From positions 558,001-622,000 of the forward strand of contig JAQGDQ010000012.1 of assembly GCA_030141605.1 (NCBI GenBank): a stretch of DNA of 64,000 nucleotides. The letters run 5' to 3'. Source of the DNA: Tubiluchus corallicola. Taxonomy: Eukaryota; Animalia; Priapulida. Made by a program: the position numbers and the translations under genes. Below, in pieces: positions 235 to 55,514 of this stretch. The notes beneath the pieces are model-generated. The model saw only the letters and a list, made by a program, of their open reading frames with translations, had not been told where the DNA came from and ran no database searches. Position 1 is the stretch's first letter. Each line of letters begins with the position of its first letter.

Positions 235-465
235 CTAAAAAATGTAATGTAACTGCTTGCAAACAAAACAAGATTAACACAGACTCAGAATTTCATTTTA
301 AAGCCTTTGCATGTACAATTACATTTGCCTTTACCATTTCATTCACACTGGTAAAAGAATAATCCAAAGATATACTAACATATGCATCCATGTCAGCAAG
401 TACACTAATCCCCTTCCCTGTGCATCTTCTTTACAAGCATATAACATATGTTGACAAAAATGTAC

Positions 466-609
466 CTGTACAATTACACTGTAGTTTGTTTCGCTGAATT
501 TTGGTGGATTGTCGTTAGCATCCAGTAGCTCAATGTTCACATGTACAAAACTAGACAAAGGCGGTTTGCCACTGTCTGTTGCATGAACTTGAAGTGTGTA
601 GCTGTCTCT
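466..609 (-). CDS. FAT1: Fat-like cadherin exon 35
   Basis: ttacag/gtacat, phase 0-0; RDSYTLQVHATDSGKPPLSS...DANDNPPKF. Confidence 0.93.
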
Positions 610-705
610 CTGTAAATTTAACAGTGGAGATCAAAAGTTTGCAAAATACATTACATAATGATTGCTATTTTATGCAATGACTTATGAAACAAAAAATTAT
701 ACATA

Positions 706-1521: not shown

Positions 1522-1527
1522 ACTTAC

Positions 1528-1665
1528 AGTTTCACGGTCCAAATGTTTGGCTACTGTTATAACACCAGTGCTGCCATCAATATCAAACATCCCAATTGCA
1601 TCACCCGACATAATGGAGTATGCTATGAGACCATTAAGAGAACTGTCCTCGTCTGTTGCCAGTAA
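1528..1665 (-). CDS. FAT1: Fat-like cadherin exon 34
   Basis: ttttag/gtaagt, phase 0-0; LLATDEDSSLNGLIAYSI...TGVITVAKHLDRET. Confidence 0.93.
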
Positions 1666-1805
1666 CTAAAACACAATCCAAAAATGTGTTACCCATTTTA
1701 TAGACATATGGGTATATTTGCATCTCCTAATTACAATAATGAAGCCTTCAAGTAAAGAAATAACCGGTTATTAAACACAAAAATATCAATTACAGCAGTG
1801 CATAC

Positions 1806-2020
1806 CTGTATTACAGAGGTGCCCAGATCAGCATTTTCCTTTATTTGTGCACTGTAGGATGGCTGACTAAAACTGGGTGCATTGTCATTGTAATCAGTAA
1901 TATTTATATTCACTGTGGCAATGTTGCTAAGTGATGGAGTACCGCCATCGTTTGCTTGGATAGTCAAAAAATAGTCCTTTGATACTTCATAATCGAGGGG
2001 CTTAACTACAGAAATAGCAC
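1806..2020 (-). CDS. FAT1: Fat-like cadherin exon 33
   Basis: cccag/gtatgc, phase 1-0; GAISVVKPLDYE...DYNDNAPSF...SVIQ. Confidence 0.93.
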
Positions 2021-2080
2021 CTGGGAAAAAAATCACAAAAATGATTAGAATTCACGAATTTTGTATCTGGTTAAACAAAA

Positions 2081-2479
2081 TTTATATTCGTAATGCAAAG
2101 CGCTCGACTTCGAAGATCTTCTAAACATTGTAATCACTGTGTTTCAATTTACTTATTTTTTATAGTAATATTGGGTCTTGGTAATAACTAAGATTCTGCA
2201 ATATGCATATTGAAAATCAACCATTTATTCATTTTATTGTTTCTCCAATTTTCAAAACTTTTATAACACCAAAACTAGAATGGCTAGAATCATGAAACTT
2301 GAGCAGACACTAGGTGTTGGGGCCCTGACAGTGGAATGACAAACAGCGACCTCGTCAAAGAGTCAAGAAGATCAGTGGACATCGGCCAGTTTTCCTTCTG
2401 TCGCTTAACCCTCCTGCATTTTTGAGCTAATTCAAATTTTCTCACAGTTACTCAAATGTGCATATTGCATAATCTAGTT
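2081..2479. mobile_element. Degenerate HINE/DINE-like non-autonomous element
   Basis: Starts TTTATATTCGTAATGCAAAGCGC and ends TGCATATTGCATAATCTAGTT (short imperfect subterminal inverted repeat, CTAGTT end); internal ATCATGAAACTT motif. Confidence 0.3.
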
Positions 2480-2542
2480 TCAGTGTATTTTAATTAGTTT
2501 CTATAGTCTATGTTAACACAGGGAAAAATTACAGAACATTAC

Positions 2543-2755
2543 CAGTTTTTGGGTCTATGCTGAATTTGTTATGCTCATTGCCGGCAATGATGGAGTAAGT
2601 AATCTGCGCATTAATGCCACTATCACGGCTCGTTGCTAGGACACGAAGAATGTTGTTATCTATCGGGGTATTCTCACCAACACTAGCTGTGTAGACTTTT
2701 CGTTCAAATTCAGGTGGGTTGTCATTAACATCAGAAACCAGAATGGTCAATGTTG
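2543..2755 (-). CDS. FAT1: Fat-like cadherin exon 32
   Basis: tttag/gtaatg, phase 1-1; TLTILVSDVNDNPPEF...FSIDPKTG. Confidence 0.93.
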
Positions 2756-3004
2756 CTAAAAAACAAATATATTTAACCATCTTGAATCAACACATTCCAT
2801 ATTTATCCCTACCAATGACTAGCAATGGCCACAAAATTACTTGGACTACCAAGCATAAATATGAAATGGCTTTAAATCTTGACGCATGCAGTAAATGGAT
2901 TTTTACATATTACACCATTAAAGCAAGTCACGCCAAGTCATTATTGTACGATTTGGAAGCTTATACCTACTACTTATGGCAAGCTAACTGCTGTTCTCAA
3001 ATAC

Positions 3005-3178
3005 CTGTTCCAAATAGCCTTGGTTGACCATGATCAGTTGCCCTCAAGTGCAAGTTGAAACTAGATTGCACCTCTCTATCTAATGGCTTTGTTAAGCTTA
3101 CTATCCCACTTGTCGCGTCAATGGAGAAGGTACCATCAGCGGAATCTTCAAGCGTGTAATTTATTTGTCGGTTAATGC
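3005..3178 (-). CDS. FAT1: Fat-like cadherin exon 31
   Basis: ttcag/gtattt, phase 1-1; [35 protein letters not shown]...[12 protein letters not shown]; not in ORF track. Confidence 0.92.
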
Positions 3179-3383
3179 CTGAAATAAGTTATGAAATGTA
3201 AATGGTTTTCTTTCATTTCGACAATTTTACTAGAAACATCTGAAGAAATATACTTATAATACTATTTAATGTAAATACAAGGAGTTTTTCATTTTATTTA
3301 TTTATTATGGTAAATAACAATTTACTACTTCAAATGTCTGAATAAGTTATGGCAGCACACAAGACTGAATGAGTACAGCTTAC

Positions 3384-3516
3384 CCAAGTCTGGATCAGTA
3401 GCATGAACACGAATCAAAAGCGAATTTCTTGGCATATCCTCAGCAACTGTCACTGTGTAGTGATCCGAATCAAACTGTGGAGCATTATCGTTAACATCAG
3501 ATAACTTTATTTCAAC
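3384..3516 (-). CDS. FAT1: Fat-like cadherin exon 30
   Basis: tttag/gtaagc, phase 0-1; VEIKLSDVNDNAPQF...HATDPDLG; not in ORF track. Confidence 0.92.
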
Positions 3517-3606
3517 CTAAATTGTAAAAGTGATCAGATTATGGAATCAGATTTGATCGTATTATGATAAAAAGTTCTAAAAAATTAAACAAAAATCTGA
3601 ACTTAC

Positions 3607-3861
3607 ACGTGATGTGCACGAATGATCTGCAACATCCGCTGCTACAGCAACCAGTTCGTATTTGCTAACTGACTCTCTGTCAAGTTGCCTAGCAACTGTA
3701 ATAATGCCCATGTGTGGATGAATGTCAAACATGTTACTTCCTGGTCCAGTTAGGTTATACTTCAAACGAGCATTGATTCCAAAATCATTGTCAATAGCTT
3801 GTATTCGAGTGACATATTGAGTAACTGTAGATCCCTCAGAAATAATTTCACTGTAAACATC
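3607..3861 (-). CDS. FAT1: Fat-like cadherin exon 29
   Basis: aacag/gtaagt, phase 0-0; DVYSEIISEG...LDRESVSKYELVAVAADVADHSCTSR. Confidence 0.92.
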
Positions 3862-4201
3862 CTGTTAAAACAATAACATTACAATTTGCAGATATCATGG
3901 AGAGTTGTCATCAGCCATAGCAAATCACCATTGGCAGTAAGAATAAGAGAAGGTACTTGAACAAAAGAAACACAACACACATTATTTCTTTAACAACAAA
4001 AAGCTGAAACAGCAAAATATATCTGAGCCTCAAACATTTCTTTTGAAAATACGAGATCAAGACGTCTTTAATCGGTAACATGATTGCTTCATACCAAGAC
4101 TAGAAAACAACTGAAAAATCTGTTAATTAGCAGATAACATAGTGACAAATGTAAAATGTAGCCAAACACAGAAGCAAAAAAGCCCTCAATCGGTGCCTTA
4201 C

Positions 4202-4408
4202 CTGATCACACATTGGTACATTATCGTTCACATCAAGTATCTCCACCGTTAGCTGTGTCTGAGTAACAAAAAGACCATCTGTGGCAAGGACTAACAAGTC
4301 GTAACGATTCTGCATTTCTCTATCTAAAGGTTTTGTAACATAAACCTCACCGCCTGGTCCCATATCAAACTGCCCTCTTTGATCTCCAGCAATGATATAG
4401 TAGGAAGC
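4202..4408 (-). CDS. FAT1: Fat-like cadherin exon 28
   Basis: tttag/gtaagg, phase 0-0; ASYYIIAGDQRGQF...LDRE...DVNDNVPMCDQ. Confidence 0.93.
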
Positions 4409-4588
4409 CTAAATATGAAATAAAATGCCTAGATTGCAAACAACAATGAAGTAAATAATCTAATGCAACTTTGTTAATGCAATTAACAAAAACAAGGAAA
4501 ATCTACTATGCAGTTAAAAAAGGAACTATTTAATCGTGCAAAATTTAAGTAGTGCTCGGTGCCAATTAAAAACAATTTTTTGCTGTAC

Positions 4589-4723
4589 CATTGCATTTTC
4601 ACCCTCATCAAGGTCTGTTGTTTCTAGCACCATCACAGTTGTCCCTGGCAAGGCATCTTCGTTTACCGCAGCAGTGTAATGACTTTTGCTAAATGTTGGT
4701 GGATTGTCATTGTAATCCATCAC
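4589..4723 (-). CDS. FAT1: Fat-like cadherin exon 27
   Basis: tatag/gtacag, phase 0-0; VMDYNDNPPTF...TDLDEGENAM. Confidence 0.9.
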
Positions 4724-4851
4724 CTATAAGTAGTTGTTTTAGATAAATTGCTTCAGACAATGAAATATTATTTGATGAACATTAGATCTACACACTGTTA
4801 AGCAACAAGTGCATATGTAATTAGTAGCTTTTTAATATTTCTGTTACTTAC

Positions 4852-5032
4852 ATTAACAAGGAGTTCCGTTGTCTGTGCAAGCTGTATGGGTTCACCACCA
4901 TCTGTAGCTTTAACAGTAATAACATATGACATCACAGCTTCTCGATCTAGTTCTGCAACTGTGGTTACCCAGCCTGTCTTGCTGTCAATGATGAAGAAGC
5001 CACTCACCTCAGCTTCATTTACAATTGAATAG
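4852..5032 (-). CDS. FAT1: Fat-like cadherin exon 26
   Basis: tccag/gtaagt, phase 2-0; YSIVNEAEVSGFFIIDSKTGWV...LDRE...ATDGGEP. Confidence 0.93.
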
Positions 5033-5202
5033 CTGGAAAAAAATATCAGTACTCAAAGCAGCAACTACACTTACATTTACTATAAAACAAAAAGAAAGAT
5101 TATCAAGTTTGTCAAATTCTATCTTAACATATCTAGACACAATTCAGTTTCTCATAACAAGTTTTACAAGTTTTTTCTTGTCTCGTTAAGTTTCATTCTT
5201 AT

Positions 5203-5858
5203 GCACTAGACTCACGATTAATAGAATCAGTCGCTTAATTGACTCACTTATCATATGCACTATTATGCTAGCCTAGATTTTGCTTTGAATCTGTCTCACG
5301 CTCGTCTACTGCAATTAACCTCGTTGTTTCGTGAATCTAAACATTTTATCACTTGCCTAGCAGTTGCTTTTAAAGTTCCCATTGCTTTTCACAGGGGAAA
5401 CAAGGTCATTACTAATTCCAGCTCAAGCATTAGATGACTAGGTTTTTGCGTGAACATGTGCAGCATAGAGCAACAAATTTTCAACGTTTTCGTCAATATA
5501 ACCCAACTTCTTTCTATACATTGTATTTGCATTTCCAAGCAAATGGAAAATAAATAAATTGCTCTTCACGAAGAAGTGAAGCAACCAACCTTGCATGATT
5601 TTGTGTAAATTTTAGTGGTAATAGTAAGATTTGAGCAATTTTGTTTTCATTTTTGTTATTTATGAATTCACTTATATTGACATTAATTCATTTCTAAAAT
5701 TCACTTAAAGCATTTGCAATGAATACTAAGGTGATGAGTGATGACTCATACGTCTGTAGTAGTAACATGTTATACCTGTCAGTTAATTGATCCAGTCGGT
5801 TAATTGGGTCAAAACACTTCCATCCCAAAGTGAGTCTATTAAGCTGCACTTACTCTAA
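5203..5858. mobile_element. Degenerate MITE-like element (pogo/Tigger-like termini)
   Basis: Left TTAATAGAATCA versus right TGAGTCTATTAA (inverted), with TTAATTG sub-repeats at both ends; family is inference. Confidence 0.3.
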
Positions 5859-5936
5859 TTGTAACACGAATGTTTTTCTAAAAGTTATTAAAAAAATTTT
5901 GAAATCCAGTTAAATGGAAATTTGTACTTTATTCAC

Positions 5937-6073
5937 CTCACACCGCTGGTACTTAGATCTGCATCAATAGCTGTCATTTGTATAACTGGTGTACCTCTCG
6001 GCACATTCTCGGCTACATTCGCTTCACAAGGTGAGCAGGAAAATTCCGGATAGTTGTCATTGACATCCATTAT
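5937..6073 (-). CDS. FAT1: Fat-like cadherin exon 25
   Basis: accag/gtgaat, phase 0-2; IMDVNDNYPEF...AENVPRGTPVIQMTAIDAD; not in ORF track. Confidence 0.92.
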
Positions 6074-6460
6074 CTGGTAAAATAAAGGCAACAAAGCTAT
6101 TTTCAGCTACAACTATACATACAGGTTAATAGTTCTACCTCGAGGTGAGAATTAGTGGTTTTTTAGCATTTAGTTGGATTCATGAAACCCCAAGGGTTAT
6201 ATTACCAGGTTCCGTGGTATTACTAATTTTCAATAAACCAGTTTTTTCTCTACTGGTTCCTACACCAATTACAGTCACATAGAATAATAAAACTAATTAA
6301 TTAATAACCTAATCAAATTATTATGCAAATAACATTTGACAAAGAACACTTCAATAAAATATGCCAATATAAAACACTAAATATCTGGCCAGTTAATAAA
6401 ACTCTATACAATATGAGAACTGCCTGTGAGAGTTCCAAAAAAGTTAACAAGAGTTATTAC

Positions 6461-6630
6461 CTGTATATGAACTTCAGTGAAATCAGTCAGAGGTGGACTG
6501 GACAATGTAGATACTTCGATAGTGAGAACATACTGGTCAGTTTCTTCCCTATCTAAAGGTCGAAGGACTCTAATGGTTCCATCATTGTCAATAGAAAATT
6601 GTAACTTTGAGTTTGTGATTGGTTCCACAC
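6461..6630 (-). CDS. FAT1: Fat-like cadherin exon 24
   Basis: gctag/gtaata, phase 1-0; QFSIDNDGTIRVLRPLDREE...EVHIQ. Confidence 0.92.
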
Positions 6631-7047
6631 CTAGCAAGATGTTAGAAAAAAACAGCACATCAACCAACTTAGTCCTAATTATGTTATAAAAAAACTAGAG
6701 AACTAACCAAAACAAAATTTTATTGCCTGGGAAAATATAATCAGTATGAAGCCTGATAAGTGTAGCATGTGCAATGTGAATCATCTTAATGTATATCTGT
6801 CTGCTGAAACGTGCAAATATTGAAATTAGGTGATTTTTTTCTAAATGGCATTGCAGATTTTTTAAATGGATCTTTGGAGATTTACCACACATTGCTACAT
6901 GTGGACTTGAAAAAGAAAACGAAAAAAAAAACAAAAAACTTGAAAAGTATAGAAAATTTCAAGAAAATAAAGAAAAGGTAAAAATTAATGTGCTATGAAA
7001 TACAACATCGCCCACAGGGGCAATCTCATACTGCATTATCAACATAC

Positions 7048-7263
7048 CTGGTACAATACTGTAGCTGAGACTAGTTTCACCTTTAGCTGGAATTGTGGCA
7101 ATTGGACTTCCTGGACGTATGTTTTCATTGACAAAGTATTGGTAAGGTCCTTGTTCAAATCGAGGAGGAACATCGTCGTCATCCATAATCATGACTTCAA
7201 TAGGGACGTCGGCTGCCATAACACCATCTTCAGCACGTATGAAGAACTGTACTACTTCGTTTT
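7048..7263 (-). CDS. FAT1: Fat-like cadherin exon 23
   Basis: tatag/gtatgt, phase 1-1; NEVVQFFIRAEDG...SYSIVPG. Confidence 0.92.
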
Positions 7264-7461
7264 CTATAAAAACAATTAAAGTTAGGAAAACCAAAATACT
7301 TGTAAACATTTTATGAGCAAAAGGTATTTAATATCTATCGTTATCTCCACAAAATGTAACACAATTCAAAGACGTCATAAAAACTTGTCTGGCAGCAACC
7401 TAAGCAAATCTAGAGGGAAAGCTCAAACTTGAGATTACCTAATACTTAATCTCAGACTCAC

Positions 7462-7603
7462 CTAATCCTGTAAGCAGGCTACTTATAGTGAGATCGCCAG
7501 TAGTCTTGTTTATTGTAAACAAGTTTGAAGCGTTGGTCATTTCGCTTTCGTAAATACTGTAGTGCACAATACCGTTGCCAGCGTCAGGATCAACAGCTTT
7601 TAC
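7462..7603 (-). CDS. FAT1: Fat-like cadherin exon 22
   Basis: tgcag/gtgagt, phase 0-1; VKAVDPDAGNGIVHYSIY...FTINKTTGDL; not in ORF track. Confidence 0.92.
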
Positions 7604-8235
7604 CTGCATGAAAAATAGTAAAATTAATGATAATCAAAAATGACAAAGCCACATAGGAACTACCTGCAAGTAAAAACATGTTTTTAGTATATGAAGTACA
7701 CCAACAGTTATCATTACTGTTATAAAAGCTATTATGCCATTTGAATTTTATATTAATTAGGAGTAGGTTCAGATTCAATCTTTTTACATTTGAATTTCTT
7801 TTGCATTCTGTTGTCGCTTAAAATGCTTAAATGATGATTTCATCCATTGTTACATGCTGGCATTGTTAAAATACAATAATAAGTTGGAAAAAAATCAAAT
7901 CAAAATTTTAAGCATTTTAACATACAAAAGCTTTAAGAAGTTGTCATCAAGATAGGACTTCCTGGATCACAGTCCTATCTGCAAAATTCTTAACAAACTA
8001 AACTGGCAAATGTAAAAAATAAACAAAATACATTAAAACTTTTGTAAAGCAAATTTACGCAGGTGTTTAGCAATCAGACATGCTTAGTTAAGTTGTTTTC
8101 ATGCCAGTTAACAAAACTATCGTATAGAATTTAAACAACAAGAGATAAAAGCTGGGACATGACATGATGCTACTTTTTTTATTACGCTCTTCTTCTGTGC
8201 AGTTTCCTTGCCTTTAACCTATAATTAGTTATCAC

Positions 8236-8444
8236 CTTTAAAATACTGGTGCCTATGTCTGTATCTGAATGGATGTTGGCTCTGTACTGAGAAGCGCGAA
8301 AAACAGGCGGAGAGTCGAATTCATCTCCAATATGAACTGAAACAGTAGCAAATCCGGATCGACCGCCACCATCTTCTGCAATCACCGAGAATACATACAC
8401 ACTACACTCCTCACGATCTAATGCAACCTTACTTCGAATCTCTC
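8236..8444 (-). CDS. FAT1: Fat-like cadherin exon 21
   Basis: tttag/gtgata, phase 1-0; EIRSKVALDREE...AEDGGGRSGF...TSILK. Confidence 0.92.
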
Positions 8445-8865
8445 CTAAAAAATAAACACAAAACTTTACTTATACTGAGACATATTAGTTTTTTAGGTAA
8501 GATATACTTTCTACTGCAATCACATATTTTGAAATTTAAAAAAAATGTGTCATGGTCGTTAGATGAAGCACAGGCAAATGCTCAATTCACCCGTGCACGA
8601 TAATAGAACATGCTTCCTGCACTCAAAAACCAGATTTCGATTCAAAACTGAACACATTTTTTGTACTAAGTCACGAAAAACACCGTTAAGGAAAAGTGTG
8701 CACACAATTAAAACTTGATCATCCAAACTGATTTTTATTTATGGCAATATGAACTTGTATTTATAAAGAAAAAAGTCTAATAACGAGTCAGTCATGCAAA
8801 CAGACAAATGTTCTATCTCCATCATCATTACTGCAATTTAACAGCGAAAAAGATCAAGAACGTAC

Positions 8866-9010
8866 CTGTGTTTTCATCAATGTCAAACACCTTTTCAATC
8901 TTGTCATCCAAAATTCGAAAGCTAATTTTTCCATAAGTATCCCTGTCTCTGTCTGTAGCAACAACTGTTGTTACGATTGACCCAGCCACTTTATTTTCAG
9001 TGAAATTCAC
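8866..9010 (-). CDS. FAT1: Fat-like cadherin exon 20
   Basis: tacag/gtacgt, phase 0-1; VNFTENKVAGSIVTTVVATDRD...FDIDENTG. Confidence 0.92.
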
Positions 9011-9451
9011 CTGTAAGTTTAAAAACCTTTGTACAATTCTTTGTACAAACCTGCCCTGTTCACACATTTATCCCCAGCAAATGCATTTTCACAAATCATT
9101 GGACAGTTTATATCAAAAATTGCTATTTTTACTTCTTTGAGTTGCAATCATTTTGTGGTTTGAAAATTTTTAAGAGCAGTAGTCTCCAAAAAATACTCTT
9201 ATATGGTTTACTTATTTATTCCTGTTATGTAATGTTTATTTTTTCGAAAACTCTCATTCAAAGCTTGTCTTTCACTAATTTCTAGCACTCAATTTGCCAA
9301 TTTTTTTAAAATAAGTTCTTTAACTTGTATTATAAAGGCTATGTAAACCACCAACAATTTTTTTACTCCTAACTGTATTTGAAGCAAATTGTTTTACTTG
9401 TGTCTAGTGCTTTGGTCATTTTCTGTTTTACACAACGCACAAAAAGCTCAC

Positions 9452-9612
9452 CTCATACAGGTTCTGGGTAAAAACAGGTGAGAATTTATTGGCACTAGTT
9501 ACATTGACATGAACTTGAGTAAATGCTGAATAGACGCCATCAGTTGCTGTTATGTTTAGTATATAGAACGGCTCCAACAATATCTCTCCATGGCTCGCTA
9601 ATGAAATTGCCC
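9452..9612 (-). CDS. FAT1: Fat-like cadherin exon 19
   Basis: ttcag/gtgagc, phase 1-0; AISL...LNITATDGVYS...ANKFSPVFTQNLYE. Confidence 0.92.
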
Positions 9613-9901
9613 CTGAAATGGTACAGGTTGATTTTGACTTCATAGAACACTAATCATTTGAATGTCCATAAAATACACAGAAACGAAAAATACAACATGT
9701 GACTAACTAAAACAAGGTTTTCCACAAAAAATCAGGTTCATAAAATACAATTACGTTATGAATCAACACTTATTATATGTAAGGTAGGATTTATCATAAA
9801 CAAGCTAAATCTAGATGTAGAAACAAACTTAAAACAAAAAAGAGGAAAAACTGTAAAAAAAAATCATTAGCACAGAGTGGCTGTCTTTCAGAAACACTTA
9901 C

Positions 9902-10216
9902 CAGTCTTTGAATCAACTGAAAAAGTTTTCTGTTCATTTCCACCCACAATGAAATATTTCAGTTTTGTCCAATCAGAATGGTCTGGATCAAATGCTGTAA
10001 CCATGGTAACAAACTGCCCATGTGCAGCTTCTTCCGAAATGGAACAGTTGTAGTTATACTGATCAAAGAAAGGTGGATTGTCATTGATATCAGTTATGCG
10101 AATCCATACCGTAGTTGTGGAACTAAGGGCGGGGTTCCCTGAATCCATAGCTACCACATGGAAACGATAATGCGATTGTTTTTCATAATCTAAGTTCTGT
10201 TTAGTATGTATTGAAC
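9902..10216 (-). CDS. FAT1: Fat-like cadherin exon 18
   Basis: tacag/gtaagt, phase 1-1; LDYEKQ...DINDNPPFF...FSVDSKTG. Confidence 0.93.
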
Positions 10217-10599
10217 CTGTAAAAAACAAATGTATTAATGCCACTAAAAATATGAATCTGGCAGGCACTGCATGACTTGGAAATGACTAGGTCAAACACT
10301 TGCAAGGATTTTGCACATATTCTGTCCATTTATTAACTTACAAAACTGTAAATAAAAAAATCTTGCATTTAACATTGCTATGATAATTCTTAATGCTAAA
10401 AACCTGAACAGTTGAAATCTTGCAGACTGTTTCCCTCTGACTAGCTAAAATGGAATCACCTCTTTCTGTGTGGTGGGGTAGGGGCTAAATTAATTTAATT
10501 TAACTTAGTTCATCCCTGTAGCTCCACTAGTTAAACTGATAGTAATGCACTACAATATAAAATTAGCATATTAAGTAGAGCGAAAGACATTTTACTTAC

Positions 10600-10923
10600 C
10601 AGTAGAGGAATCCACATGGAAGACACTGAGTGTAATATCACCATCTTCAACTGGCTCAATGTGATAATGTAGCAGCTTGTTTGCCCCAGAGTCTTCATCA
10701 TTGGCTTTGACTTGTCCAATCGATGTACCAACAGGTGCCACTTCTAATACATTAAAAATGTAATTGCTCTTCTCAAAAATGGGAGCATTGTCATTGACAT
10801 CGACTAGCTGAACATTGACAATGACGTCAGAGTGGACACTAGACAATGTGTCCGTAGCACGCAAAGTCAACTGGTAATTCTGCTGCATTTCGTAGTCTAG
10901 GTCATCAACCACACTGATGACAC
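10600..10923 (-). CDS. FAT1: Fat-like cadherin exon 17
   Basis: attag/gtaagt, phase 1-1; VISVVDDLDYE...DVNDNAPIF...FHVDSSTG. Confidence 0.93.
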
Positions 10924-11895
10924 CTAATAAAAGAAAGCACATTTAATATGGCTAGAAATTTTAAGCTGAATTATTTTTTACGTGACATAATTGCTTCTCT
11001 GAACTTCAGTAATTAAAAAGTTGACTAACCAAGTTTACTGATTGAAATACCATATTAATTAATTACATTTAATTGCAATTGTAATTATAAAAGTAAGTTA
11101 ACTTGAATACTTTTATTCCAAGATAATGTACTTTGCCTGAAAACGTACTTGCTTGGAGCAAAAAAAGGAAATAGTAAATTTAATTTCGACAGCAACTGCA
11201 AGACATTATTAATAAATGAAGATAATTGAGTTTAGTGATCATTTATCACAGCATTTGCTGAATTAATTAAAGCCTTATGGGCTACAGTAAATGAGTATTA
11301 TTCAAAATGCCTTCCAACACAGTCAAACAGAAAGTGTCAAAAACTGTAAATATTATATGACAAGATATTTAGAGATCTACAACCTAAACTACAAGAATTC
11401 TCTCAAAACACCAAAAAAGCTATTTTCCTTTCTAAATAATGCATGCTTAATGAACTGCAACTTCGTTATGAACAATAAATTTTTTGTAACTCTTATAATC
11501 TCCTAACTTCTAAGCCAACACATAATGCTTTACTATCTACATGTAATCGATGAAAAATAACAAGAAAAAACAAAACAGAAAATGCAATAAAAAATAAATA
11601 AATCACACCATTATGTTAGTTCAAAAATACAAAATGTGTGCAAAGCAGTTAATTTCATGGCATTTGGGAATCTAGTATTTACTTAGGAAATGTAAATGGC
11701 CAGAAATCAGAAAAGTGGCAAATTTTTTGACTCATCATTGTTATAGCCAATCATTGCCAAAACAAAAATATTTCAGGTGTAGAAAATATCCCAAATTCCA
11801 TGTCTGTAAAAAGCGTATAGGCAAAATAGTTAACTGGCGGACAACAGCAAAACAGACGCCTACAAACACAAGAGCATCTTTCCAGTTATACTCAC

Positions 11896-11916
11896 AAGGA
11901 GAGTTATATTCTGGAT
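11896..11916 (-). CDS. FAT1: Candidate 21-nt alternatively spliced microexon (gives DPEYNSPC in place of G)
   Basis: Minus strand reads pyrimidine tract...ccaacag ATCCAGAATATAACTCTCCTT gtgagt; length 3n, phase 1-1 matching the flanking exons, no stop. Confidence 0.75.
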
Positions 11917-14679
11917 CTGTTGGTAGACCACAAAATGAAATGGTAAAAAAACACAGAATTAATGCAAGTTGTAATTATTATACATTCTAATACAATACCA
12001 AAATTATTATTGCACCGTCCCTTACTAATTAGTCAAAACTTAAATGTAGTGTGTTACCCAAAGAATTCACACAAGGTAATTTTTAGAAGTTAGAAAAAAA
12101 AATGAGGCAAGTTACATCCTATTATTTTTTTAAGTTAACAACTTAAATTTATGAAGAAGAAGTTATGGAAAAATGCACAAAAACTGCAGAACTAAAATGC
12201 TTGCTCATATGGATGGAGAGAAGCAAGAAGGATTGTAATTTTGTTTTTGCAGCTATTGTGGATTTAACTTATTACAAAATGTGCACATCGGCAAATATTA
12301 CAGCACACGAGAAACAAAGCTCTAGTTAGCCGATACTTTGCAAAATAAACAAAATAAAATTCTGTCTAGTTTAATGAGAATCTATGAGAATCTAACATAC
12401 GCAGTTAAAGAAACTGAAATGCTTAGCTCAATATAGTCTTAAATTCCCCGAAATACAGTTTCTTTTGATTAACAGGTAATTAGACACCAATACACTGCTT
12501 CTAAATAAAGATTTACGTGCATTTCAATTTTTTAACAATTCTTGGCACCAAAAATTGATGTTGGTCAAAGTGCCATATTCCAAAGACTCAAAGAACATGG
12601 AGCCTTAACAGACTAGTAATGTCCTTATTGCTAAAATAGTCAGAATTTGGAATGTTTCCATTGGTAAATGGGCTAACAGTTTAAACTCTATTCTAAGCAG
12701 TGGGCACGTAAACTTACAGCAAGGCTGTAAATTTAGATGGTAGTAGTTATTTACAACAAACAGCATTTTGTATTAAAACAGTGAAAGGATAATAAGTGAA
12801 ATTTCCTTAATTTTTTGACTTGACAAAATGTATATGTGCACTATTTAGTTAGATAGTAATAGTTTGCTTTTTGTCAGGTTACAAGTACTCCATGTTAATT
12901 AATGATAGCTGATAAAATGTTAGTGATCGAATGCCATATCACATACTTAATTTCGTACTACAAATTCTGTGTTTGCTATTACAATTAGTTGTCTATGCTG
13001 GAAGCTTTGGAACTTTTGGTAATTTGTTAGAGCCTATGCACTTGTTCTCACTCCCTCACATGACCTACTAAGTTGTTTTTTTGGGAAAGACAAACCAAAT
13101 AATGCAGCAACCCAAAAGCCTACGAAACTCAAATTTGCTTGTTTCTTGTTTCATAGTTGCTATTTTTTGACGTCCCTATGAGGTGGTTTGTGTATAGGCA
13201 CTGTGGAACTGTAGCACCCCCTATTTTCACTCGATATTACCGACAACATTTAATATAATGAGTCTTTTTTCTTTCATTCTTTCTTTATACTTGTACATAC
13301 TTGTAAATCCTTGTATGGAACCACAGCACGTGACAGAACTGTGTGCTTCTCAGTTCCAGCGACACTGTGTTTGAGTATTGTGCTCATGCGGCCGTGTCCG
13401 AGATAAGAAGCTGCATGCTAGGTAGAAACAGGACTGTCGTTCATGTAGTGCCGATCCTATTGTGTATGTAGTGATTCTTTTTGAGTCAGCGTGTTGTGCT
13501 TAAAAGCCGTGAACCATACTCTTGAATGTGATAAACTGTTAAACTGAGTTTTTTTGGTTCTTTTATTTTACAGAATACTTAAGTAATTTAATCATGGCCT
13601 CCTTGCATTCCCAAGAAATAAGTTCTGTGACTGTAAGTGAACTTCAGTAGTTTAAGTTTTCACAGTTGTCTCTCCATGAGAAAGTTACAATTAAGAAAAC
13701 GGCTGTTCAACACCTTTCTGAAGTAGCACCTCCACTAATCTTAGCTATGACCAGTCATTGCTTGTGAGTTAAGCCTTAACTGCACTGTGAATTAAGCCAT
13801 AATTGCAATGCTTTTCATAGTCAAAAAACAAGAATTCATGCAAAGTTTTAAAATGAAAAGTATTAGTAAATAAAGGATTTAAGATCAACAGTAATACTTG
13901 TGAAATTTCTAAATCCACAATGAAATTATAATTGTACCAATTGAGGTAACTTAATTGAATAAATTGTACCAAGTGCATTAAAAACTACAGTTATGAAATT
14001 GTAGTGTTTATGCAACATGTGATCTAGCCTAGTGGGTTCCAAAAGTTATAATTACCCGCAAAAATAACATACACTCCACTTTGAAAATTTGTTTTGGGCA
14101 TTATTATATTTTTACACAGTTTCAAAGAAAGAAGGAGCACTTTGCAAATAAATTAGAAGTAAAGCGGACAAAGACAAAAGGAAGATTGAAGCAGTTGCTT
14201 GATGCTGCAGAAAGCAAAGGAGCGCAAATCATATCAACGGTTTTATAAATTTATTTGAAACTTTGAAATTACGAAGAGATATTAAGTCACACCTCATAGC
14301 ATATTTCAAATCCATACTATGTTAACTAGAATGCCACCTAAATAGTTTCATCAACAGTACAATGAAAGACTGATAATGCTAGTATTAAAACTGTTACTAC
14401 TTTCCAACCAAAAAAAAATGAAATTACCTTGAGCGCGATCAACCAATCATACAATAACACAACAAACACGAGTTAAATCTAAATCACCTTAGCGTAACTT
14501 AATTTTGCAAGCTGCTTCTAATAAATAATTTGCGTGTTTAAGGAAAAAGTTTACTCAGAATGTTTATATGATTGGTTAAAAAATAATAAATTTTACCTTC
14601 CACTATCTGACAAATTTGAATACAATATAGCAAGCATGGTTTCTTATAATAAGAATTAACATTTAACTCGCAAACTCAC

Positions 14680-14901
14680 CTAGATTAAAATCTACAGCAA
14701 ACTCGTGATAGATGTCACCTTGAGTGAGTGAGTAAATAAGCTTGCTTCCGCTAGGGCTGGTTGCTTGGATGCTAATCACAGCCGTGTGAAGTTGGATGTT
14801 TTCAGGAATTGTTGCTTCATAAAATTGACGTTCAAAAAATGGCATGGTTCGACTCATCAGTTGCACAGGCATGGCAACTGTGGTCGATAATGGTGGATCA
14901 C
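14680..14901 (-). CDS. FAT1: Fat-like cadherin exon 16
   Basis: ttaag/gtgagt, phase 1-1; DPPLSTTVAMPVQLMSRTMPFFERQFY...FAVDFNL. Confidence 0.92.
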
Positions 14902-15076
14902 CTTAAATCATATAAATGTCATTAATAAGCAGGAAATTTAAAAGTGCACAACACTTGTTTAATAAACATATGTTTTAACTTACCAAGAAGTATTAACTTT
15001 ACACACAAAAACAGAATAACCACACTTATTATTATGTGGCAATGGTTTCAAAAATTCACTGGCATGTAAAATTTAC

Positions 15077-15251
15077 CTTTATCAGTTGCAGTGATGTTCA
15101 AAATCTTAGAAAAGCCCTGTTCAGAATCGTGTAGTCCTCTCTTCAAACTTAGCTCCCCGGTGCGTGCATCAATTTCAAATTTGTCTTCATTGTTATTTAT
15201 GCTAAACACAATTTCTGCATTTGACCCAATATCCCTGTCAATTGCTGCCAC
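15077..15251 (-). CDS. FAT1: Fat-like cadherin exon 15
   Basis: ggtag/gtaaat, phase 0-1; VAAIDRDIGSNAEI...ITATDKG. Confidence 0.92.
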
Positions 15252-15442
15252 CTACCAGTATAAAATATGTTGTCAGTAGTAGAATGTTATGGAGCAGCAA
15301 GACTATCAACGAAAGTAGAAAATTACTATACACTTCACAGAAACAAAAAGAACATTCAACTATGTGTTGAATCACTATATCACTAAAAAGTTTATAACTG
15401 CGAATTTCCGACATAAACAATTTAGTAGAAAGACAATCAAAC

Positions 15443-16701
15443 CTTTGTTATCATTTTACCAGGCTCCAGGTCAATCGGTACCATGGCAACATATGGTTGG
15501 TTGATAAATATTGGGGCATTATCGTTCACATCAATCACATCAACATGAACCACAGTTCGAGCAACTCGCGGCAGTTCCCTTTCATCTCTACACTCCACAA
15601 TGACATCATAGCTACTGCATTCCTCACGGTCAAAAGTGGAATTCAAGTAAAATGCACCAGACGTTCGACCAACAAAGAACATTGTGCTCGGGTTGAGGAT
15701 CGTAAAAACAATGTGCTCGTTGAGACTATGCCCAGTAACTTCCAATATGAATACTGCTTTCTCAAAATTTGTAACATTTTCAACAACTTCAATTTTGTGC
15801 CTCCCTTTCACAAAAGCAAGTCCATCCACTTTTGTCATTTTAGTAGTTATTGTCATTAAAGCTGTGCTGGAATGTACACCATCACTGGCTCTTATTGTGA
15901 GATGATAACTACCACCTAATTTCTCGTTGTTCTTAACGTAAATGCTGCCATCTGTTGGAGACAAAGAAAACAAACCTTCATCGTTACCATGAAGGATGCT
16001 GTAATGTAATTCATCAGAAGCATCTGTATCAGGATCATAAGCAGTTACCTTGGCAACCAACACATTCCGGTAAGTCGGAAGCAGAATTATTGCTTCGTAC
16101 TTATTTTGAGTAAATACAGGAGAACTATCATTGATGTCATCAACAATGATAGTTACTTTTGCTGGATTTTTTGTACTCAGTTGCGGCTTGCCCAAATCAT
16201 GGGCTTGTACAGTAAACTCAAAAATGGGCACCCATTCGTGATCTAGTGACTGCACAGTTTTCAGTGCTCCAGTGTTGGGGTCAATGCTGAAATACTTCCT
16301 AATTTCCAACTCAACAATCTGATATCTTAACATGGCATTAAGATTGGAATCCCTGTCAGTGGCACGGACAACTAACGGCTGGCTAGTATTGTCTAGTACC
16401 ACCGTTACTGGTGGTGCTGACTCCATTACATGTCCAACGTACTCTGCAAACAGGAACTCGGGTGAATTATCATTCACATCAGATACATGTACCACAACAT
16501 GTGTAATTGCTTTAGCTAAGATGATGTTGGTAGCTTGTATGGTAAGATTATAATACGGAAACTGCTCATAGTCAAGAGGAAATGTAGTGGTAATCACTCC
16601 CGAATTAGAGTTAATTTGGAAAAAAGTTTTGGTATTTCCAGAAATTATTTCGTAGACAATGGATGACCGACTGATAGCAGATACTGCTGTAACATGGCTT
16701 C
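15443..16701 (-). CDS. FAT1: Fat-like cadherin exon 14 (1,259 nt)
   Basis: tacag/gtttga, phase 1-0; about four cadherin repeats inside ORF 15437..16777. Confidence 0.95.
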
Positions 16702-16883
16702 CTGTAAACCATATAATAGTATAAGTTATACAAAATAAACGAAAACAATCTTTACACAAATAATGACAAATTTCCACAAAAAATTAGTAATTATAGGTAA
16801 AAGGTAGACAGCATTTGTAGAACTTCAATTATGAACACCACAGCATAATTAGTGTCACAATAGAAAAAGAAACATAAACTAAC

Positions 16884-17120
16884 CTGCTTTCTTATTTTCT
16901 TCAATTTCCGCTTCATATTTGCTGTGCTCAAACTTTGGCGGTGCATTGTCCGAAACTGTGACAAGAATACGTACTCTGCAAGTGCTACTCAAAGCAGGCA
17001 TGCCTCTGTCGGTTGCCTTGACAACCAGCAAGTATTCAGGCACTTGAGTCCTGTCAAGTTCCTTTGCAACATAGATGATACCCAACATACCATCCATTGC
17101 AAATGTCTCCTCCACGTTTC
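16884..17120 (-). CDS. FAT1: Fat-like cadherin exon 13
   Basis: tgtag/gttagt, phase 1-1; NVEETF...ATDRGMPALSS...SDNAPPKF. Confidence 0.93.
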
Positions 17121-17466
17121 CTACAAAAATAATTTTTTGAGCATTTCACAACTGAGGTTTGAATAATTGCAACACTATATAGAACTTATCACAAGTTACT
17201 CTCAATCATTTTAGCAACTATGCACAGATAATCAGAAATTCTGCTTATTGTTATAGTTACATTTATGTTACCGAAAATGCTTAGCTTTCATTAACAAAAT
17301 TTAATTAATTTCTTTTGTACAATTGCGGTCTGACAGTACAAGTGAATACTGTAATAAAAATTAAATACGTGATAGGATAATGCTCTAATATCCACAATAC
17401 ACGTTAACACACAGGCATGTAATCCAAATTCACAACATTCTGATATATTCAGATTTACCAACATAC

Positions 17467-17742
17467 CGGTTTCAATTTTGTAGGTTATTTCAGCATTTAG
17501 TCCCTTGTCTTTATCAGTTGCTAATACTTGCACAACAGATGTGCCCACAGCAGCCGTTTCAAAAACCCGACCTTCGAACATCTCAGAGATGAAGTGAGGA
17601 GGGTGATCATTACTATCGACAATGTCCAGAATAAGACGGGCAAAGTCACGACGTGGTGGTACACCCTTGTCTTTTACAGTAACAGTTAGGATGTGTTGGG
17701 CAATGGCTTCTCTGTCAAGAGGTTCTGCTACTGTTACAACAC
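17467..17742 (-). CDS. FAT1: Fat-like cadherin exon 12
   Basis: ttcag/gtatgt, phase 1-1; VVTVAEPLDREAIAQHILTV...FETAAVGTSVVQV. Confidence 0.93.
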
Positions 17743-18149
17743 CTGAAAACACGCTTTTCGTAAAATGATGAAACCATAAAACATTTTCAAGAAATTTTTT
17801 ATAACAAACATTGAAAAATATTAAATTAAAAATTAAACAGTGTTGATATCTTTGTACATTTTTGTTACTTGTGAATTAAGTTGCACTTGTACAGTTACAA
17901 AAAACAAAAATTCTATTATTGCATGAAAAAGTAGTAACATTGCACTGCGAATAGTCATGGCTTGAATGTTATGTCACCTTCTAAATTAATTTGTTGATGT
18001 GGTCTTAATAAACATACAGTGGGATGGCTACTATCAAACATGCAACTCGAACATACAAAAAAACAAAAAAAAAACAGAAAATTAAATTAAAATTAAAATT
18101 AAATTTAAAAAATAGAAACAAGAAATATCACACAGAAATATATGCATAC

Positions 18150-18360
18150 CAGTAGATGATTCAATGGCAAATTTTGACAGACTGAGAATATTCATTGCAT
18201 CAGAAAGTGAATAGTGAAGCCTGTTTTCATCATCATCATCTGATGCATGAACAGTCAGTATACTGGCTCCAGCTCTGCTATTCTCTGCAAGTGAGACCAC
18301 GTAAACATCTTGACTAAACTGCGGCGAATGGTCATTCACGTCAATAACTTTTATAAATAC
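18150..18360 (-). CDS. FAT1: Fat-like cadherin exon 11
   Basis: tgcag/gtatgc, phase 0-1; VFIKVIDVNDHSPQF...FAIESSTG. Confidence 0.93.
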
Positions 18361-18709
18361 CTGCAAAGTAAACAAATAATAATAATAATAATATTACTAC
18401 TCAAGTTACAAAAGAAAGAAACAGTTACGCAAAAAGTAAGTGTATAAAAATAGTGTTGTTAATCAAATATCAATAGATTTAATCAAAATTATTAATGCAG
18501 TCCAAATGAATAACTATAACAATGAAAATCGCAGTAAAAATGGTTAAGATGTTCACATGAATTCTATTTGAACGTATGGTAAGCAAAATATACAATACCC
18601 GTGAATGGTACAATAATTGAAAATTTAAAATTTTTAACTAGAAAGTTAAGAGTGCATTACTGAAAATTTAGAATTTTTAAGTTTAAACTTTAATTTTTAA
18701 GTGGCTTAC

Positions 18710-18849
18710 ACTCGAAGAAACAGAATGAAAACCATCGGTGACGGCTATGGTAAGATTGTACCAATCACGTATCTTCCAGTTTAAGCGACGAGCCAGAATT
18801 ATGCTACCACTGCTGACGTCAATGCTAAACATGCCTTCGTCATCTCCAT
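18710..18849 (-). CDS. FAT1: Fat-like cadherin exon 10
   Basis: tacag/gtaagc, phase 1-0; GDDEGMFSID...LARRLNWKIRDWYNLTIAVTDG; not in ORF track. Confidence 0.92.
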
Positions 18850-18994
18850 CTGTAAGCAAAAATTAACTTGATTACAGTGTGACAATTGATAAAATGTATT
18901 ATAATAGGCTTCAATATAACCATATAAAGCGATGTTTGTAGCAAGACACTAATTATCCTTTTTATAATAGATACATTTATTGTTTATTACTCAC

Positions 18995-19211
18995 CGGTGA
19001 CTGAATACCAAAGCCGGTCGCCATCTTCATCGAATGCATCAACCAGCTTAATTAGGGTACCTGGTGGATCATTTTCCATGACTGTAGTAGTAATGTTGGG
19101 ATTTTCAATGATGACCGGAGCATGGTCAGATTTTCTGGATTGTTCTAACACATGTATGAGCACCCGAACGCTATTTTTCAGTGGTGGTTGACCTCTGTCC
19201 ACTGCTTTTAC
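18995..19211 (-). CDS. FAT1: Fat-like cadherin exon 9
   Basis: tacag/gtgagt, phase 0-1; VKAVDRGQPPL...DEDGDRLWYSVT. Confidence 0.93.
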
Positions 19212-19660
19212 CTGTAGATAGGAAAAGTTGCTAACAAACAGAAGTAAGATGATACTGTTCATGAATTATTATGTAGCTAAACAAAGCTTCACCACAATCT
19301 TGTCTATTACAAAATAAGAATGTATTACAAAGGCTTTTCATTGGCAGGATTGATGGGCATGACTCAATAAGACACGTCATATTATAAGTGCAAAAACGCA
19401 ATTCGCTTAGAATGAATTACTTGTTATATAATGTCAGAAAAACCAGAAAACACCCTAAATTTCAAATCTTTAAACACTTAAATTCCCATATAGCTGCATG
19501 TAATTTCATTCAACGTATTGCAATAATTCAACTCAATACTGGATACGATCGACTTGACGCAATGATAAACCTGCGACACTATTTTAGAGAAAGCAATGAG
19601 CGCACATTTATTACAAAAGCACTACAATTCCGGATAATTTCAAAATGTGATGGAACTTAC

Positions 19661-19794
19661 AGTAATGTCATAGCCTTCACCAGCCACCAAGCCTTTCCGA
19701 CTGTAGATCATGCCCATTTTTGAATCGATGCTGAACCTCGAACGTCCTCTTCTACTCGTAGTCTTCAATGAGTAGCTTATTTCTCCATTTCGAC
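19661..19794 (-). CDS. FAT1: Fat-like cadherin exon 8
   Basis: ttcag/gtaagt, phase 1-0; RNGEISYSLKTTSRRGRSRFSIDSKMGMIYS...YDIT; not in ORF track. Confidence 0.9.
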
Positions 19795-20028
19795 CTGAAA
19801 ATTTTGAAAAATGTGCCACCAGTTAATGGATAATTTCCACGTAGATAATTACAGATGAAAATAGGATAACCAGGTAATATGTTAACAAGTCAGGAATGAA
19901 ATGTTTTGTCAATATTTATCAATATGGTTTTAAAAATGCAAAGTGCTTGAAAAGATTGGATGAAATAATTGTTTAGCAAGCTTGCTTTTGTATTGCGAAA
20001 AGCACCTCAAACTGAAAACTAAACATAC

Positions 20029-20209
20029 CAACGTCTGGATCCACAGCAATCACTCGCATTAAAGGTGTGTCTCGAGACGATGATGCGGGCAACTGCACTT
20101 TGTATATCTTCTCTATGAATTGTGGTTTGTTGTCATTGGTGTCATTTACGGTAACCACCACACGAGTTGTTGAAGAAAGAGGTGGATGTCCGTTATCTGT
20201 AACCCTCAC
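20029..20209 (-). CDS. FAT1: Fat-like cadherin exon 7
   Basis: ttcag/gtatgt, phase 0-1; VRVTDNGHPPLSSTTRVVV...DTNDNKPQF. Confidence 0.93.
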
Positions 20210-21507
20210 CTGAAAACAAAGCTGCTTTTAACTGAACACCCATGAAAAGAACTTACGTTCCAATATAATGATGGCATGGAGCGCATGTGAAAGTTCAGAA
20301 TTTGATTTGAAATCAAGTGGCTGACTAAAGTTATTACACAAGAGGAAAATGTTTAACAGCACTGAAGTTACTTTCAATGATTGAACATGATGGTGTTAAT
20401 GTGCTTAGATTAATGTGCTTTTCAGGGTCTTTAAACAGGCAAGACACCATCCAAAAATACACCTAGTTTTGCCCAGTTTAACTAACAACACTGAAAATTC
20501 TGGATACAATATTTTAAAATCGTGTTTGGAAGTACGATTGACGATACTTTTACAACAGTATCTGTACTGCTGTTTTTTTTATTTAATGTTTCAGTCAATT
20601 TTAGACAAGATCTAACAAAGGCCAAGATTAGTTTGCTACAAGTTTATTTTGTTAGTTTTAATGTAAAAAAGTCATCAAAAGTCAAAAGTCACCTTCCAGA
20701 CTCCACATCTGATGCCATCAACTCCCATTCATCAACTTAACATCTGTACACCACTAATGCTACCTCCCATTAGTAATCAATAAAGCGCCTACTTTCTGAG
20801 CAGCGTCTCCAAGGCAGTGCAGATTTAATCAACGAAATATAAAGTAGTCATAATATCAGTCTAGGTTTGCACTTATAACAGCTAATATGGACTGAGGATA
20901 TAAAACCTATAAACTTGGATTTACTGTCGCATTGAAATGACTCATCCAAGTTAATCAAATTTGCAGTAAACTGTTACAGAATTGATGATTTGACCTAGTA
21001 TATCTGGCTTGACGAAAACGAACCTCGAGCAACAGGGAAGTTTAGCAAGAACGATTTTCCATTGCTGAGTAGAAACAAACAGTAATATGGATGAGTTATT
21101 AGGTTAGCCACTGACTTCCAGGTTATACAACTGACATAGAATAAATTTTATCTAGAACTGGAGATCTCTAAAAGAAAAATTGCATTATGACATAGTGCCA
21201 TTAAAAGTGCCACATACACGAAGATGCCTCTAAAAGCACTGGAAAATTTGACATTCAAATCGACTACCTCAAGGAGAAATTATACACCCTGTATGCGTGC
21301 GGATATTAGTCATAGTCAAATGCAGAATAATATTGGAATGAAGCTCATAAATCTATTTCACAGTTTACAATAATTAAATTCGCATAACATGAAAAATGAT
21401 AATAGTTCATTGAAGAAGGCAACAGCCTGAAACGGAAAAGGTGTGAGTGGGTCAAGCCGAGTCCCATTAAATACTATAAAGCGGTTTATATTTTTTGGAA
21501 CATATAC

Positions 21508-21663
<156 letters not shown>

Positions 21664-24199: not shown

Positions 24200-24273
24200 A
24201 AAAATAGAAAGAGGGAAGCGTGGGTGCAGTGAAAGCAAAATAAAAAGAGTTGCAAAAAGAAATAAAGAAAAAA

Positions 24274-24332
<59 letters not shown>

Positions 24333-55448: not shown

Positions 55449-55479
<31 letters not shown>

Positions 55480-55512: not shown

Positions 55513-55514
55513 TA

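What the first reader, a model, noticed from the sequence alone, without database searches (positions are those of the whole stretch)
11896..11916. Hidden 21-nt microexon that remodels one cadherin repeat and adds a cysteine
Seen: in the only large intron (10924-14679, 3.76 kb) of an otherwise compact exon run, the minus strand reads ...ttctgtgtttttttaccatttcattttgtggtctaccaacag|ATCCAGAATATAACTCTCCTT|gtgagt. It is 3n long and phase 1-1. Skipping gives FAVDFNL-G-VISVVDDLDYE; inclusion gives FAVDFNL-DPEYNSPC-VISVVDDLDYE. This replaces the conserved glycine of the FxIDxxTG turn with a 7-residue-longer loop and an extra Cys. A TGC lies about 50 nt upstream of the acceptor. Established: 3-27 nt frame-preserving microexons in adhesion proteins are often neural and depend on SRRM3/4 (eMIC) via upstream UGC motifs. 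Inference: a tissue-specific switch in the Fat ectodomain (roughly repeat 20 by FAT1 numbering), possibly altering bending, binding or disulfide linkage. I recall arthropod Fat-like proteins with a short insert ending in PC at this position; that recollection is unverified, but if true the microexon is ancient.
Basis: partly seen in the sequence, partly recalled or inferred. Interest (0 to 1): 0.8.

Follow-up and report, generated by a model that had tools for sequence, protein, structure and literature searches.

The report
Ancient mini-exon in Fat-like cadherin
A 21-base stretch inside an intron of this animal's giant Fat-like cell-adhesion gene matches an optional mini-exon at the same spot in molluscs, annelids, ribbon worms and arthropods, and it would add a short cysteine-ended loop beside a predicted bendable joint, likely as a tissue-specific switch whose function is untested.

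Summary
Real. Its splice signals alone are no better than chance (243 of 300 simulated introns). Homology decides it. Fat-like orthologues of molluscs, an annelid, nemerteans, chelicerates, crustaceans and insects carry a 7- or 8-residue insert at this junction, ending in Cys in 39 of 41. A peptide match this good arose in 3 of 1000 simulated introns. Five species have both forms on record; no deuterostome has the insert, and Drosophila erecta seems to have lost it. The repeat is EC21. The insert lengthens a hairpin next to a linker lacking calcium motifs, predicted bent. Neural/eMIC control is unshown: the TGC at -50 is uninformative, and the fly's eMIC exon in this gene is another, intracellular one. 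The Cys has no local partner. No RNA covers the junction in this species. The scan found the same exon earlier in an arthropod (e1-9136319). New here is a carrier that likely lies outside arthropods and spiralians, with spiralian length and chelicerate-like sequence.

The parts
11896..11916 (-). 21-nt cassette microexon, phase 1-1, gives DPEYNSPC in place of the turn glycine of cadherin repeat EC21
   Evidence: orthologue inserts
11917..11986 (-). 3' splice site region: acceptor AG at 11917-11918, 68-nt AG exclusion zone, pyrimidine tract set back from the AG, TTAAT branch candidate at -46, TGC at -50
11890..11895 (-). donor GTGAGT; exon ends in T, whereas all 18 constitutive phase-1 donors of the gene have G at -1
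11896..11910 (-). possible 15-nt variant from a second in-frame AG
   Evidence: score 11.0 bits; weaker homology
14680..14901 (-). upstream exon: end of EC20, the EC20/21 linker lacking DxNDN, first half of EC21
10600..10923 (-). downstream exon: second half of EC21 and first half of EC22; its first two bases complete the split Gly/Cys codon
10924..14679 (-). host intron, 3756 nt (2763 nt upstream and 972 nt downstream of the microexon); holds a high-copy repeat at about 13190-13740
1..62040 (-). part of the Fat-like (FAT1/2/3, kugelei) gene: 36 exons, 35 introns, 3282 codons without a stop, about EC3 to EC33
   Evidence: two introns seen spliced in run X2

Best explanation
This is likely an optional microexon inherited from the protostome ancestor: when spliced in, it would lengthen one hairpin loop of cadherin repeat EC21 by seven residues beside a calcium-free joint that is predicted to bend, and so likely tunes the shape or binding surface of the Fat-like ectodomain in some tissues, probably neurons. 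Shown: sequence, frame, position, homologous inserts across protostomes, both isoforms on record in five other species, absence of calcium-binding motifs at the EC20/21 linker. Predicted: fold kept, insert in the loop between strands D and E, Cys as first residue of strand E, bent EC20/21 angle. Inferred: inclusion in this species; skipping as the default (weak acceptor and exon-final T between a strong upstream donor and an ordinary downstream acceptor); neural bias; effect on the hinge. The Cys is partly set by the split codon: exon-final base + GT can only give Gly, Cys, Ser or Arg, so Cys may be kept as the one hydrophobic choice at a strand start rather than for a disulfide.
For: Of 456 stored proteins, 237 hold the orthologous repeat; 182 have the single Gly, 41 an 8- or 9-residue stretch there, 39 of them ending in Cys, 12 distinct sequences. 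Carriers: cuttlefish, Gigantopelta, Owenia, Lineus, Tubulanus (+7); Ixodes, Tachypleus, Daphnia, Frankliniella, Zophobas, Athalia, Diprion, Hermetia, mosquitoes (+8). Both forms in Lineus (10 include, 2 skip of 12 full-length), Owenia (2, 1), Gigantopelta (2, 1), Anopheles arabiensis (2, 2), Ixodes scapularis (5, 1). A Diaphorina model runs through the donor right after the Cys, showing an exon end there. Peptide match 3 of 1000 by chance. It is the only one of the 35 junctions with an insert shared by spiralians and arthropods. Long AG exclusion zone (2 of 35 longer), weak acceptor and strong upstream donor fit the eMIC-exon layout described in PMC8797185 section 10. AlphaFold model of Lineus EC20-22 with the insert: pLDDT 89, strands 153-156 and 167-171, Cys167; skip form has a 5-residue turn (pLDDT 71). 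EC20/21 linker lacks DxNDN in window and Lineus and in the aligned orthologues. The three-repeat model fits DN-cadherin 3UBH (rmsd 7.7 over 296, Z 18.5), which has a bent calcium-free linker, against rmsd 15-23 for the other three-repeat matches.
Against: Splice signals alone are at chance level. UGC is outside the 2-20 nt zone, there is no UCUC and no CUAAY inside the exclusion zone; flanking introns are long, unlike fly eMIC exons. The eMIC-dependent exon of fly kug is the intracellular 30-nt one, not this. Isoform records are automatic annotations whose reads I did not see; most annotated Lineus isoforms include the exon, which does not suggest a narrow neural exon. The inter-domain angle of the model is low-confidence (pTM 0.59) and was made on Lineus, not on the window's protein; no like-for-like skip model exists. 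The insert sequence is poorly conserved apart from the last 2-3 residues. Drosophila erecta and all deuterostomes seen do without it.
Confidence: 0.66

Rival explanations
1. The exon exists to supply an unpaired extracellular cysteine that would cross-link two Fat-like molecules, or Fat-like and a partner, by a disulfide; splicing would switch covalent dimerisation on and off.
For: 39 of 41 inserts end in Cys, and the two others look like read-through of the upstream donor in automatic tick models. Keeping T at donor position -1 costs splice strength (G in 18 of 18 constitutive phase-1 donors). The Cys is the only one in EC20-22 in the window and in 7 of 14 carriers.
Against: Only four residues are possible at this split codon; the model puts the Cys at the start of strand E, where it may be buried; a weak donor may itself be what is selected.
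Confidence: 0.2
2. The exon is real and ancient but included in most tissues, or regulated by stage or by a non-neural programme, and is not an eMIC target.
For: 10 of 12 Lineus and 5 of 6 Ixodes scapularis records include it; the UGC, UCUC and CUAAY parts of the eMIC code are missing.
Against: Skip forms occur as full-length records in many taxa, among them four long Logan open frames; long AG exclusion zone and weak acceptor are eMIC-like.
Confidence: 0.35
3. The segment is a chance AG..GT match or a decayed relic in this species.
For: Splice scores at chance level.
Against: Peptide match to chelicerate inserts (3 of 1000), right length, frame and terminal base, intact AG and GTGAGT, highest pyrimidine content at -42..-15 of all 36 acceptors (interval chosen after looking), and a host intron four times longer than any neighbour.
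Confidence: 0.04
4. Spiralian (21 nt) and arthropod (24 nt) exons arose independently in the same old intron, so the exon is convergent, not ancestral.
For: Lengths and N-terminal residues differ between the two groups; bioRxiv 10.64898/2026.09.05.749416 reports frequent convergent gains at equivalent positions.
Against: Both groups share D/A at the start and GPC at the end; the window's exon bridges them (21 nt, DP..N.PC); a 3-nt shift meets that preprint's own rule for common origin.
Confidence: 0.1

Closest known systems
Automatically annotated isoform pairs of protostome Fat-like cadherins (Gigantopelta XP_041359152 vs XP_041359154; Lineus XP_064636193 vs XP_064636203; Owenia CAH1776951 vs CAH1776952; Anopheles arabiensis X2/X4 vs X3/X5)
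   Same: Same junction, phase and terminal Cys; +7 residues as in spiralians; closest peptide is Tachypleus DPGHNNGPC.
   Different: Those are database records without described function; the window's exon combines spiralian length with chelicerate-like sequence and comes from a lineage outside both sampled groups.
eMIC (Srrm234 / SRRM3/4)-dependent neural microexons (PMC8797185)
   Same: Short, frame-preserving, weak acceptor, long AG exclusion zone, strong upstream donor; the same gene is an eMIC target in flies.
   Different: No UGC near the acceptor, no UCUC, long flanking introns; the fly kug exon DmeEX0008375 is a 30-nt intracellular exon, and D. erecta has only a 60-nt intron at the EC21 site.
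Bent calcium-free cadherin linkers (DN-cadherin EC2-3, PDB 3UBH; PCDH15 EC9-10, PMC5120219)
   Same: Linker lacks calcium motifs; model is bent and fits 3UBH best among three-repeat matches.
   Different: In the passages read no optional exon remodels those joints; here a splice choice would change a loop at the joint.
Vertebrate FAT1 splice variants (Braun et al. 2007, seen as a reference title only; intracellular location recalled)
   Same: Small inserts by alternative splicing in the orthologous gene.
   Different: No deuterostome sequence seen has an insert at EC21; fish fat1 reads through this site as one open frame on 40-45 kb contigs (P0008, P0014), which suggests no intron there.

Membership tests
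Cassette microexon (3-27 nt) | 3-27 nt, canonical AG/GT, frame kept, no stop | tested here: met
Cassette microexon (3-27 nt) | Homologous coding segment at the same junction in other species | tested here: met
Cassette microexon (3-27 nt) | Both inclusion and skipping occur | tested here: met
   Met for orthologues in five species by annotated records; not seen for this species
Cassette microexon (3-27 nt) | Junction reads in this species | tested here: inconclusive
   The one RNA-like run does not cover this part of the gene
eMIC/SRRM3/4-dependent neural microexon | Weak 3' splice site, long AG exclusion zone, strong upstream 5' site | tested here: met
   Acceptor weaker than 34 of 35; zone 68 nt, 2 of 35 longer; upstream donor 9.8 bits vs median 8.2
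eMIC/SRRM3/4-dependent neural microexon | UGC close to the acceptor (2-20 nt) | tested here: not met
   Nearest TGC at -50; zone from PMC12148930
eMIC/SRRM3/4-dependent neural microexon | UCUC-rich tract and CUAAY branch point | tested here: not met
   No TCTC; CTAAT only at -116, outside the exclusion zone; TTAAT at -46
eMIC/SRRM3/4-dependent neural microexon | Neural-specific inclusion that depends on eMIC | not testable with these tools
   No tissue RNA reads or knockdowns available
Fat-like cadherin (FAT1/2/3, kugelei) | Colinear repeat-by-repeat orthology | tested here: met
   About 45% identity over about 3100 aligned residues to the full-length named Fat-like proteins, 38-46% over all 16 tested; groups among them in trees
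Fat-like cadherin (FAT1/2/3, kugelei) | 34 repeats followed by laminin G, EGF, membrane and cytoplasmic parts | not testable with these tools
   The window ends within EC33 and no genome is held
Calcium-free bent cadherin linker | Loss of DxNDN and related calcium motifs | tested here: met
Calcium-free bent cadherin linker | Bent arrangement of the two repeats | tested here: inconclusive
   Predicted only, pTM 0.59; fit to 3UBH rmsd 7.7 over 296, Z 18.5, tied in Z with straight cadherins
Disulfide-forming insert | Conserved partner Cys in EC20-22 | tested here: not met
   None in the window or in 7 of 14 carriers; insect Cys at two other sites persist in D. erecta, which lacks the exon
Disulfide-forming insert | Intermolecular pairing | not tested
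   The complex prediction could not be queued

The most novel reading that the evidence does not exclude
A splice-switched free cysteine, kept since the protostome ancestor at a calcium-free hinge of the Fat-like ectodomain, lets neurons covalently cross-link or lock the bend of this giant cadherin; it was lost in Drosophila and is absent from deuterostomes, which is why no model-organism study met it.
Probability: 0.18. Interest if true: 0.78.

Novelty: new member of a known kind. Interest (0 to 1): 0.47.

Why it matters
Alternative microexons shared across phyla are rare: a 20-species survey reports that 27% of insect neural exons are conserved in even one other species and names only 'at least two' microexons as old as bilaterians. 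An exon kept at one junction from ribbon worms to mosquitoes, with a near-invariant Cys, marks a functional site in an ectodomain that is hard to dissect by cloning and whose ligands are unknown (PMC11269957). It offers a 21-24 nt deletion target in mosquito, beetle, Daphnia or an annelid. Interest is held down because the isoforms are already in automatic annotations, the scan noted the same exon in an arthropod, and neither tissue pattern nor function is shown.

Tried and rejected
No RNA holder listed for the stretch; run X2 (RNA by guess, about 93% alike) shows two spliced joints that match my gene model (17119-17466, 2018-2541) but has no contig on the exons around the microexon. No genome held. 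Splice-site scoring did not single the exon out. The TGC was rejected as evidence. The fly kug eMIC exon was first a lead, then rejected as a different exon: the paper's RT-PCR primers, translated by eye, flank the 10-residue intracellular insert of D. erecta X1. Search for a local Cys partner: none. Homodimer prediction of EC20-21: the queue was full, no result. Counterparts of five other spiralian ectodomain inserts were sought in the matching window introns: none convincing. No inverted repeat that clearly brackets the exon. No FAT1-3/kugelei chain among the best 60 of 148 solved-structure hits. The junction tally had an index error and was redone; its linker table is used. IQ-TREE failed and gave no support values. 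Four inserts not ending in Cys (two tick models, the Strigamia model, the D. erecta retained intron) were kept in the counts and read as annotation artefacts or intron retention. Literature: nine searches found no description of this exon; Torres-Mendez 2019 is not held; the closed supplementary datasets of bioRxiv 10.64898/2026.09.05.749416, which cover mosquito, bee, beetle, centipede and octopus, may list it.

Full report
Observation. On the minus strand, 11896-11916 is a 21-nt segment between an AG and GTGAGT inside intron 10924-14679. Joining by coordinates gives an open frame with or without it; inclusion replaces one Gly by DPEYNSPC. I built the host gene from alignments to 12 orthologues: 36 exons, 35 introns, 3282 codons, no stop. 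Two of these introns appear as spliced joints in run X2. The gene is the Fat-like cadherin (FAT1/2/3, kugelei), colinear and about 45% identical to named orthologues. A home-made repeat profile puts the junction in EC21 of 34.

Is it more than chance? Not by splice signals. The donor is ordinary (22 of 35 score higher), the acceptor is weak (34 of 35 higher), and 243 of 300 simulated introns hold a candidate as good. By homology, yes. A profile search with the upstream exon returned 150 proteins, 27 with the orthologous repeat, four of which had an insert at exactly this point. Further searches and cluster look-ups raised the set to 237 of 456 stored proteins: 182 with the single Gly, 17 with 8 residues and 24 with 9, 39 of these 41 ending in Cys; the remaining 14 are 9 with two residues, 3 without a downstream match, one Strigamia model and one retained intron. 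These counts are records, not independent species; there are 12 distinct Cys-ending inserts. The window's peptide ranks first among 60 open segments of its intron and is matched in 3 of 1000 simulations.

Distribution. Spiralians carry +7 residues (cuttlefish, Gigantopelta, Owenia, Lineus, Tubulanus), arthropods +8 (Ixodes, Tachypleus, Daphnia, thrips, beetle, sawflies, soldier fly, mosquitoes). Both forms are on record in Lineus (10 and 2 of 12), Owenia (2 and 1), Gigantopelta (2 and 1), Anopheles arabiensis (2 and 2) and Ixodes scapularis (5 and 1, the skip form being an older model). These are automatic annotations; I did not see their reads. One include form (P0089, 4474 aa on a 15-kb Logan contig) and four skip forms come from assembled runs, which I infer to be transcripts. 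No hemichordate, amphioxus or vertebrate sequence has the insert. Drosophila erecta X1 retains a 60-nt intron at this site, too short to hold an exon, so the exon is likely lost there. The window's protein falls outside the sampled arthropods (Strigamia included) and outside the sampled spiralians, as sister to arthropods with weak support (0.76; unresolved at 0.51; no support values). A non-arthropod ecdysozoan is my inference; an unchecked note on the same genome says the same. Its exon has the spiralian length and the chelicerate-like sequence, which favours one ancestral exon over two gains.

Structure. An AlphaFold model of Lineus EC20-22 with the insert (22 sequences, pLDDT 89, pTM 0.59) keeps the fold, places the insert in the loop between the strands at 153-156 and 167-171, and makes the Cys the first residue of the second strand. 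A vertebrate skip fragment shows a 5-residue turn there (pLDDT 71). From the standard cadherin topology (own knowledge) this D-E loop faces the preceding repeat. The EC20/21 linker lacks DxNDN, and the model superposes far better on DN-cadherin 3UBH (rmsd 7.7 over 296) than on other three-repeat fragments (15-23), though Z values are tied; 3UBH has a bent calcium-free linker (PMC5120219, passages). Twelve other linkers in the window's protein also lack the motif, so lying beside one is not rare. The Cys has no partner in EC20-22 in the window or in 7 of 14 carriers. It is encoded by a split codon that allows only Gly, Cys, Ser or Arg, so its constancy can reflect an intermolecular disulfide, packing at a strand start, or selection for a weak donor. 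I could not separate these.

Regulation. PMC8797185 (section 10 read) describes eMIC exons as having weak acceptors, long AG exclusion zones, strong upstream donors, UGC near the acceptor, UCUC tracts and CUAAY branch points. The first three fit; the last three do not. UGC is placed at 2-20 nt in PMC12148930 and in the first several nucleotides in PMC4387716 (passages); here it is at -50, a distance reached by 19 of 35 constitutive acceptors. The paper's supplement lists a 30-nt eMIC-dependent, pan-neuronal exon in fly kug, but its primers flank an intracellular insert. Neural inclusion therefore stays a prior (about even odds), not a result.

What is known. Nine literature searches found no description of this exon (PMC9935876 and PMC11497213 seen as listings only). 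A 2026 preprint on 20 bilaterians (passages) does not name Fat or kug in its main text, but its closed supplements may list the exon.

Verdict. A genuine, protostome-wide cassette microexon of the Fat-like cadherin, new as a member in this lineage, of a known kind. Exon real about 0.95, alternative in this species about 0.85, neural about 0.5, disulfide role about 0.2. Interest 0.47.

Noticed in passing
orthologues P0383-P0398, P0272 (Lineus, Owenia, Gigantopelta): Spiralian Fat-like records show further optional ectodomain inserts at five other junctions shared with the window's introns (5, 5, 6-7, 7-26 and 6-13 residues); Lineus X10 skips three together. No convincing counterpart was found in the window's short introns.
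   Followed up: partly
window 32299-32331 and 37094-37105, minus strand: Two frame-keeping exon candidates (33 nt, 17.0 bits; 12 nt, 15.6 bits) in the 13.2-kb intron score above the best antisense control (14.0) and would insert into the same hairpin position of EC11; no orthologue has an insert there (0 of 64).
   Followed up: partly
window 13190-13740: High-copy repeat in the host intron (depth in the thousands in X1) with sharp ends, probably a non-autonomous DNA transposon; single copy within the window.
   Followed up: partly
window 55423-55896: Open frames that look like a fragment of a Tc1/mariner-type transposase (resemblance recalled, not searched).
   Followed up: no
window 21358-21790 and 24082-24653: Long (TAT)n and (TC)n simple repeats in the 5.6-kb intron.
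   Followed up: no
P0406 (Drosophila erecta kug X1), residues about 4616-4626: The fly's eMIC-dependent 30-nt exon is intracellular and also yields a Cys at its split 3' codon.
   Followed up: partly
window 3993-4028, minus strand: An 18-nt segment starting at 4028 resembles the start of an Owenia insert at the same junction, but its acceptor and donor are poor; read as chance.
   Followed up: yes
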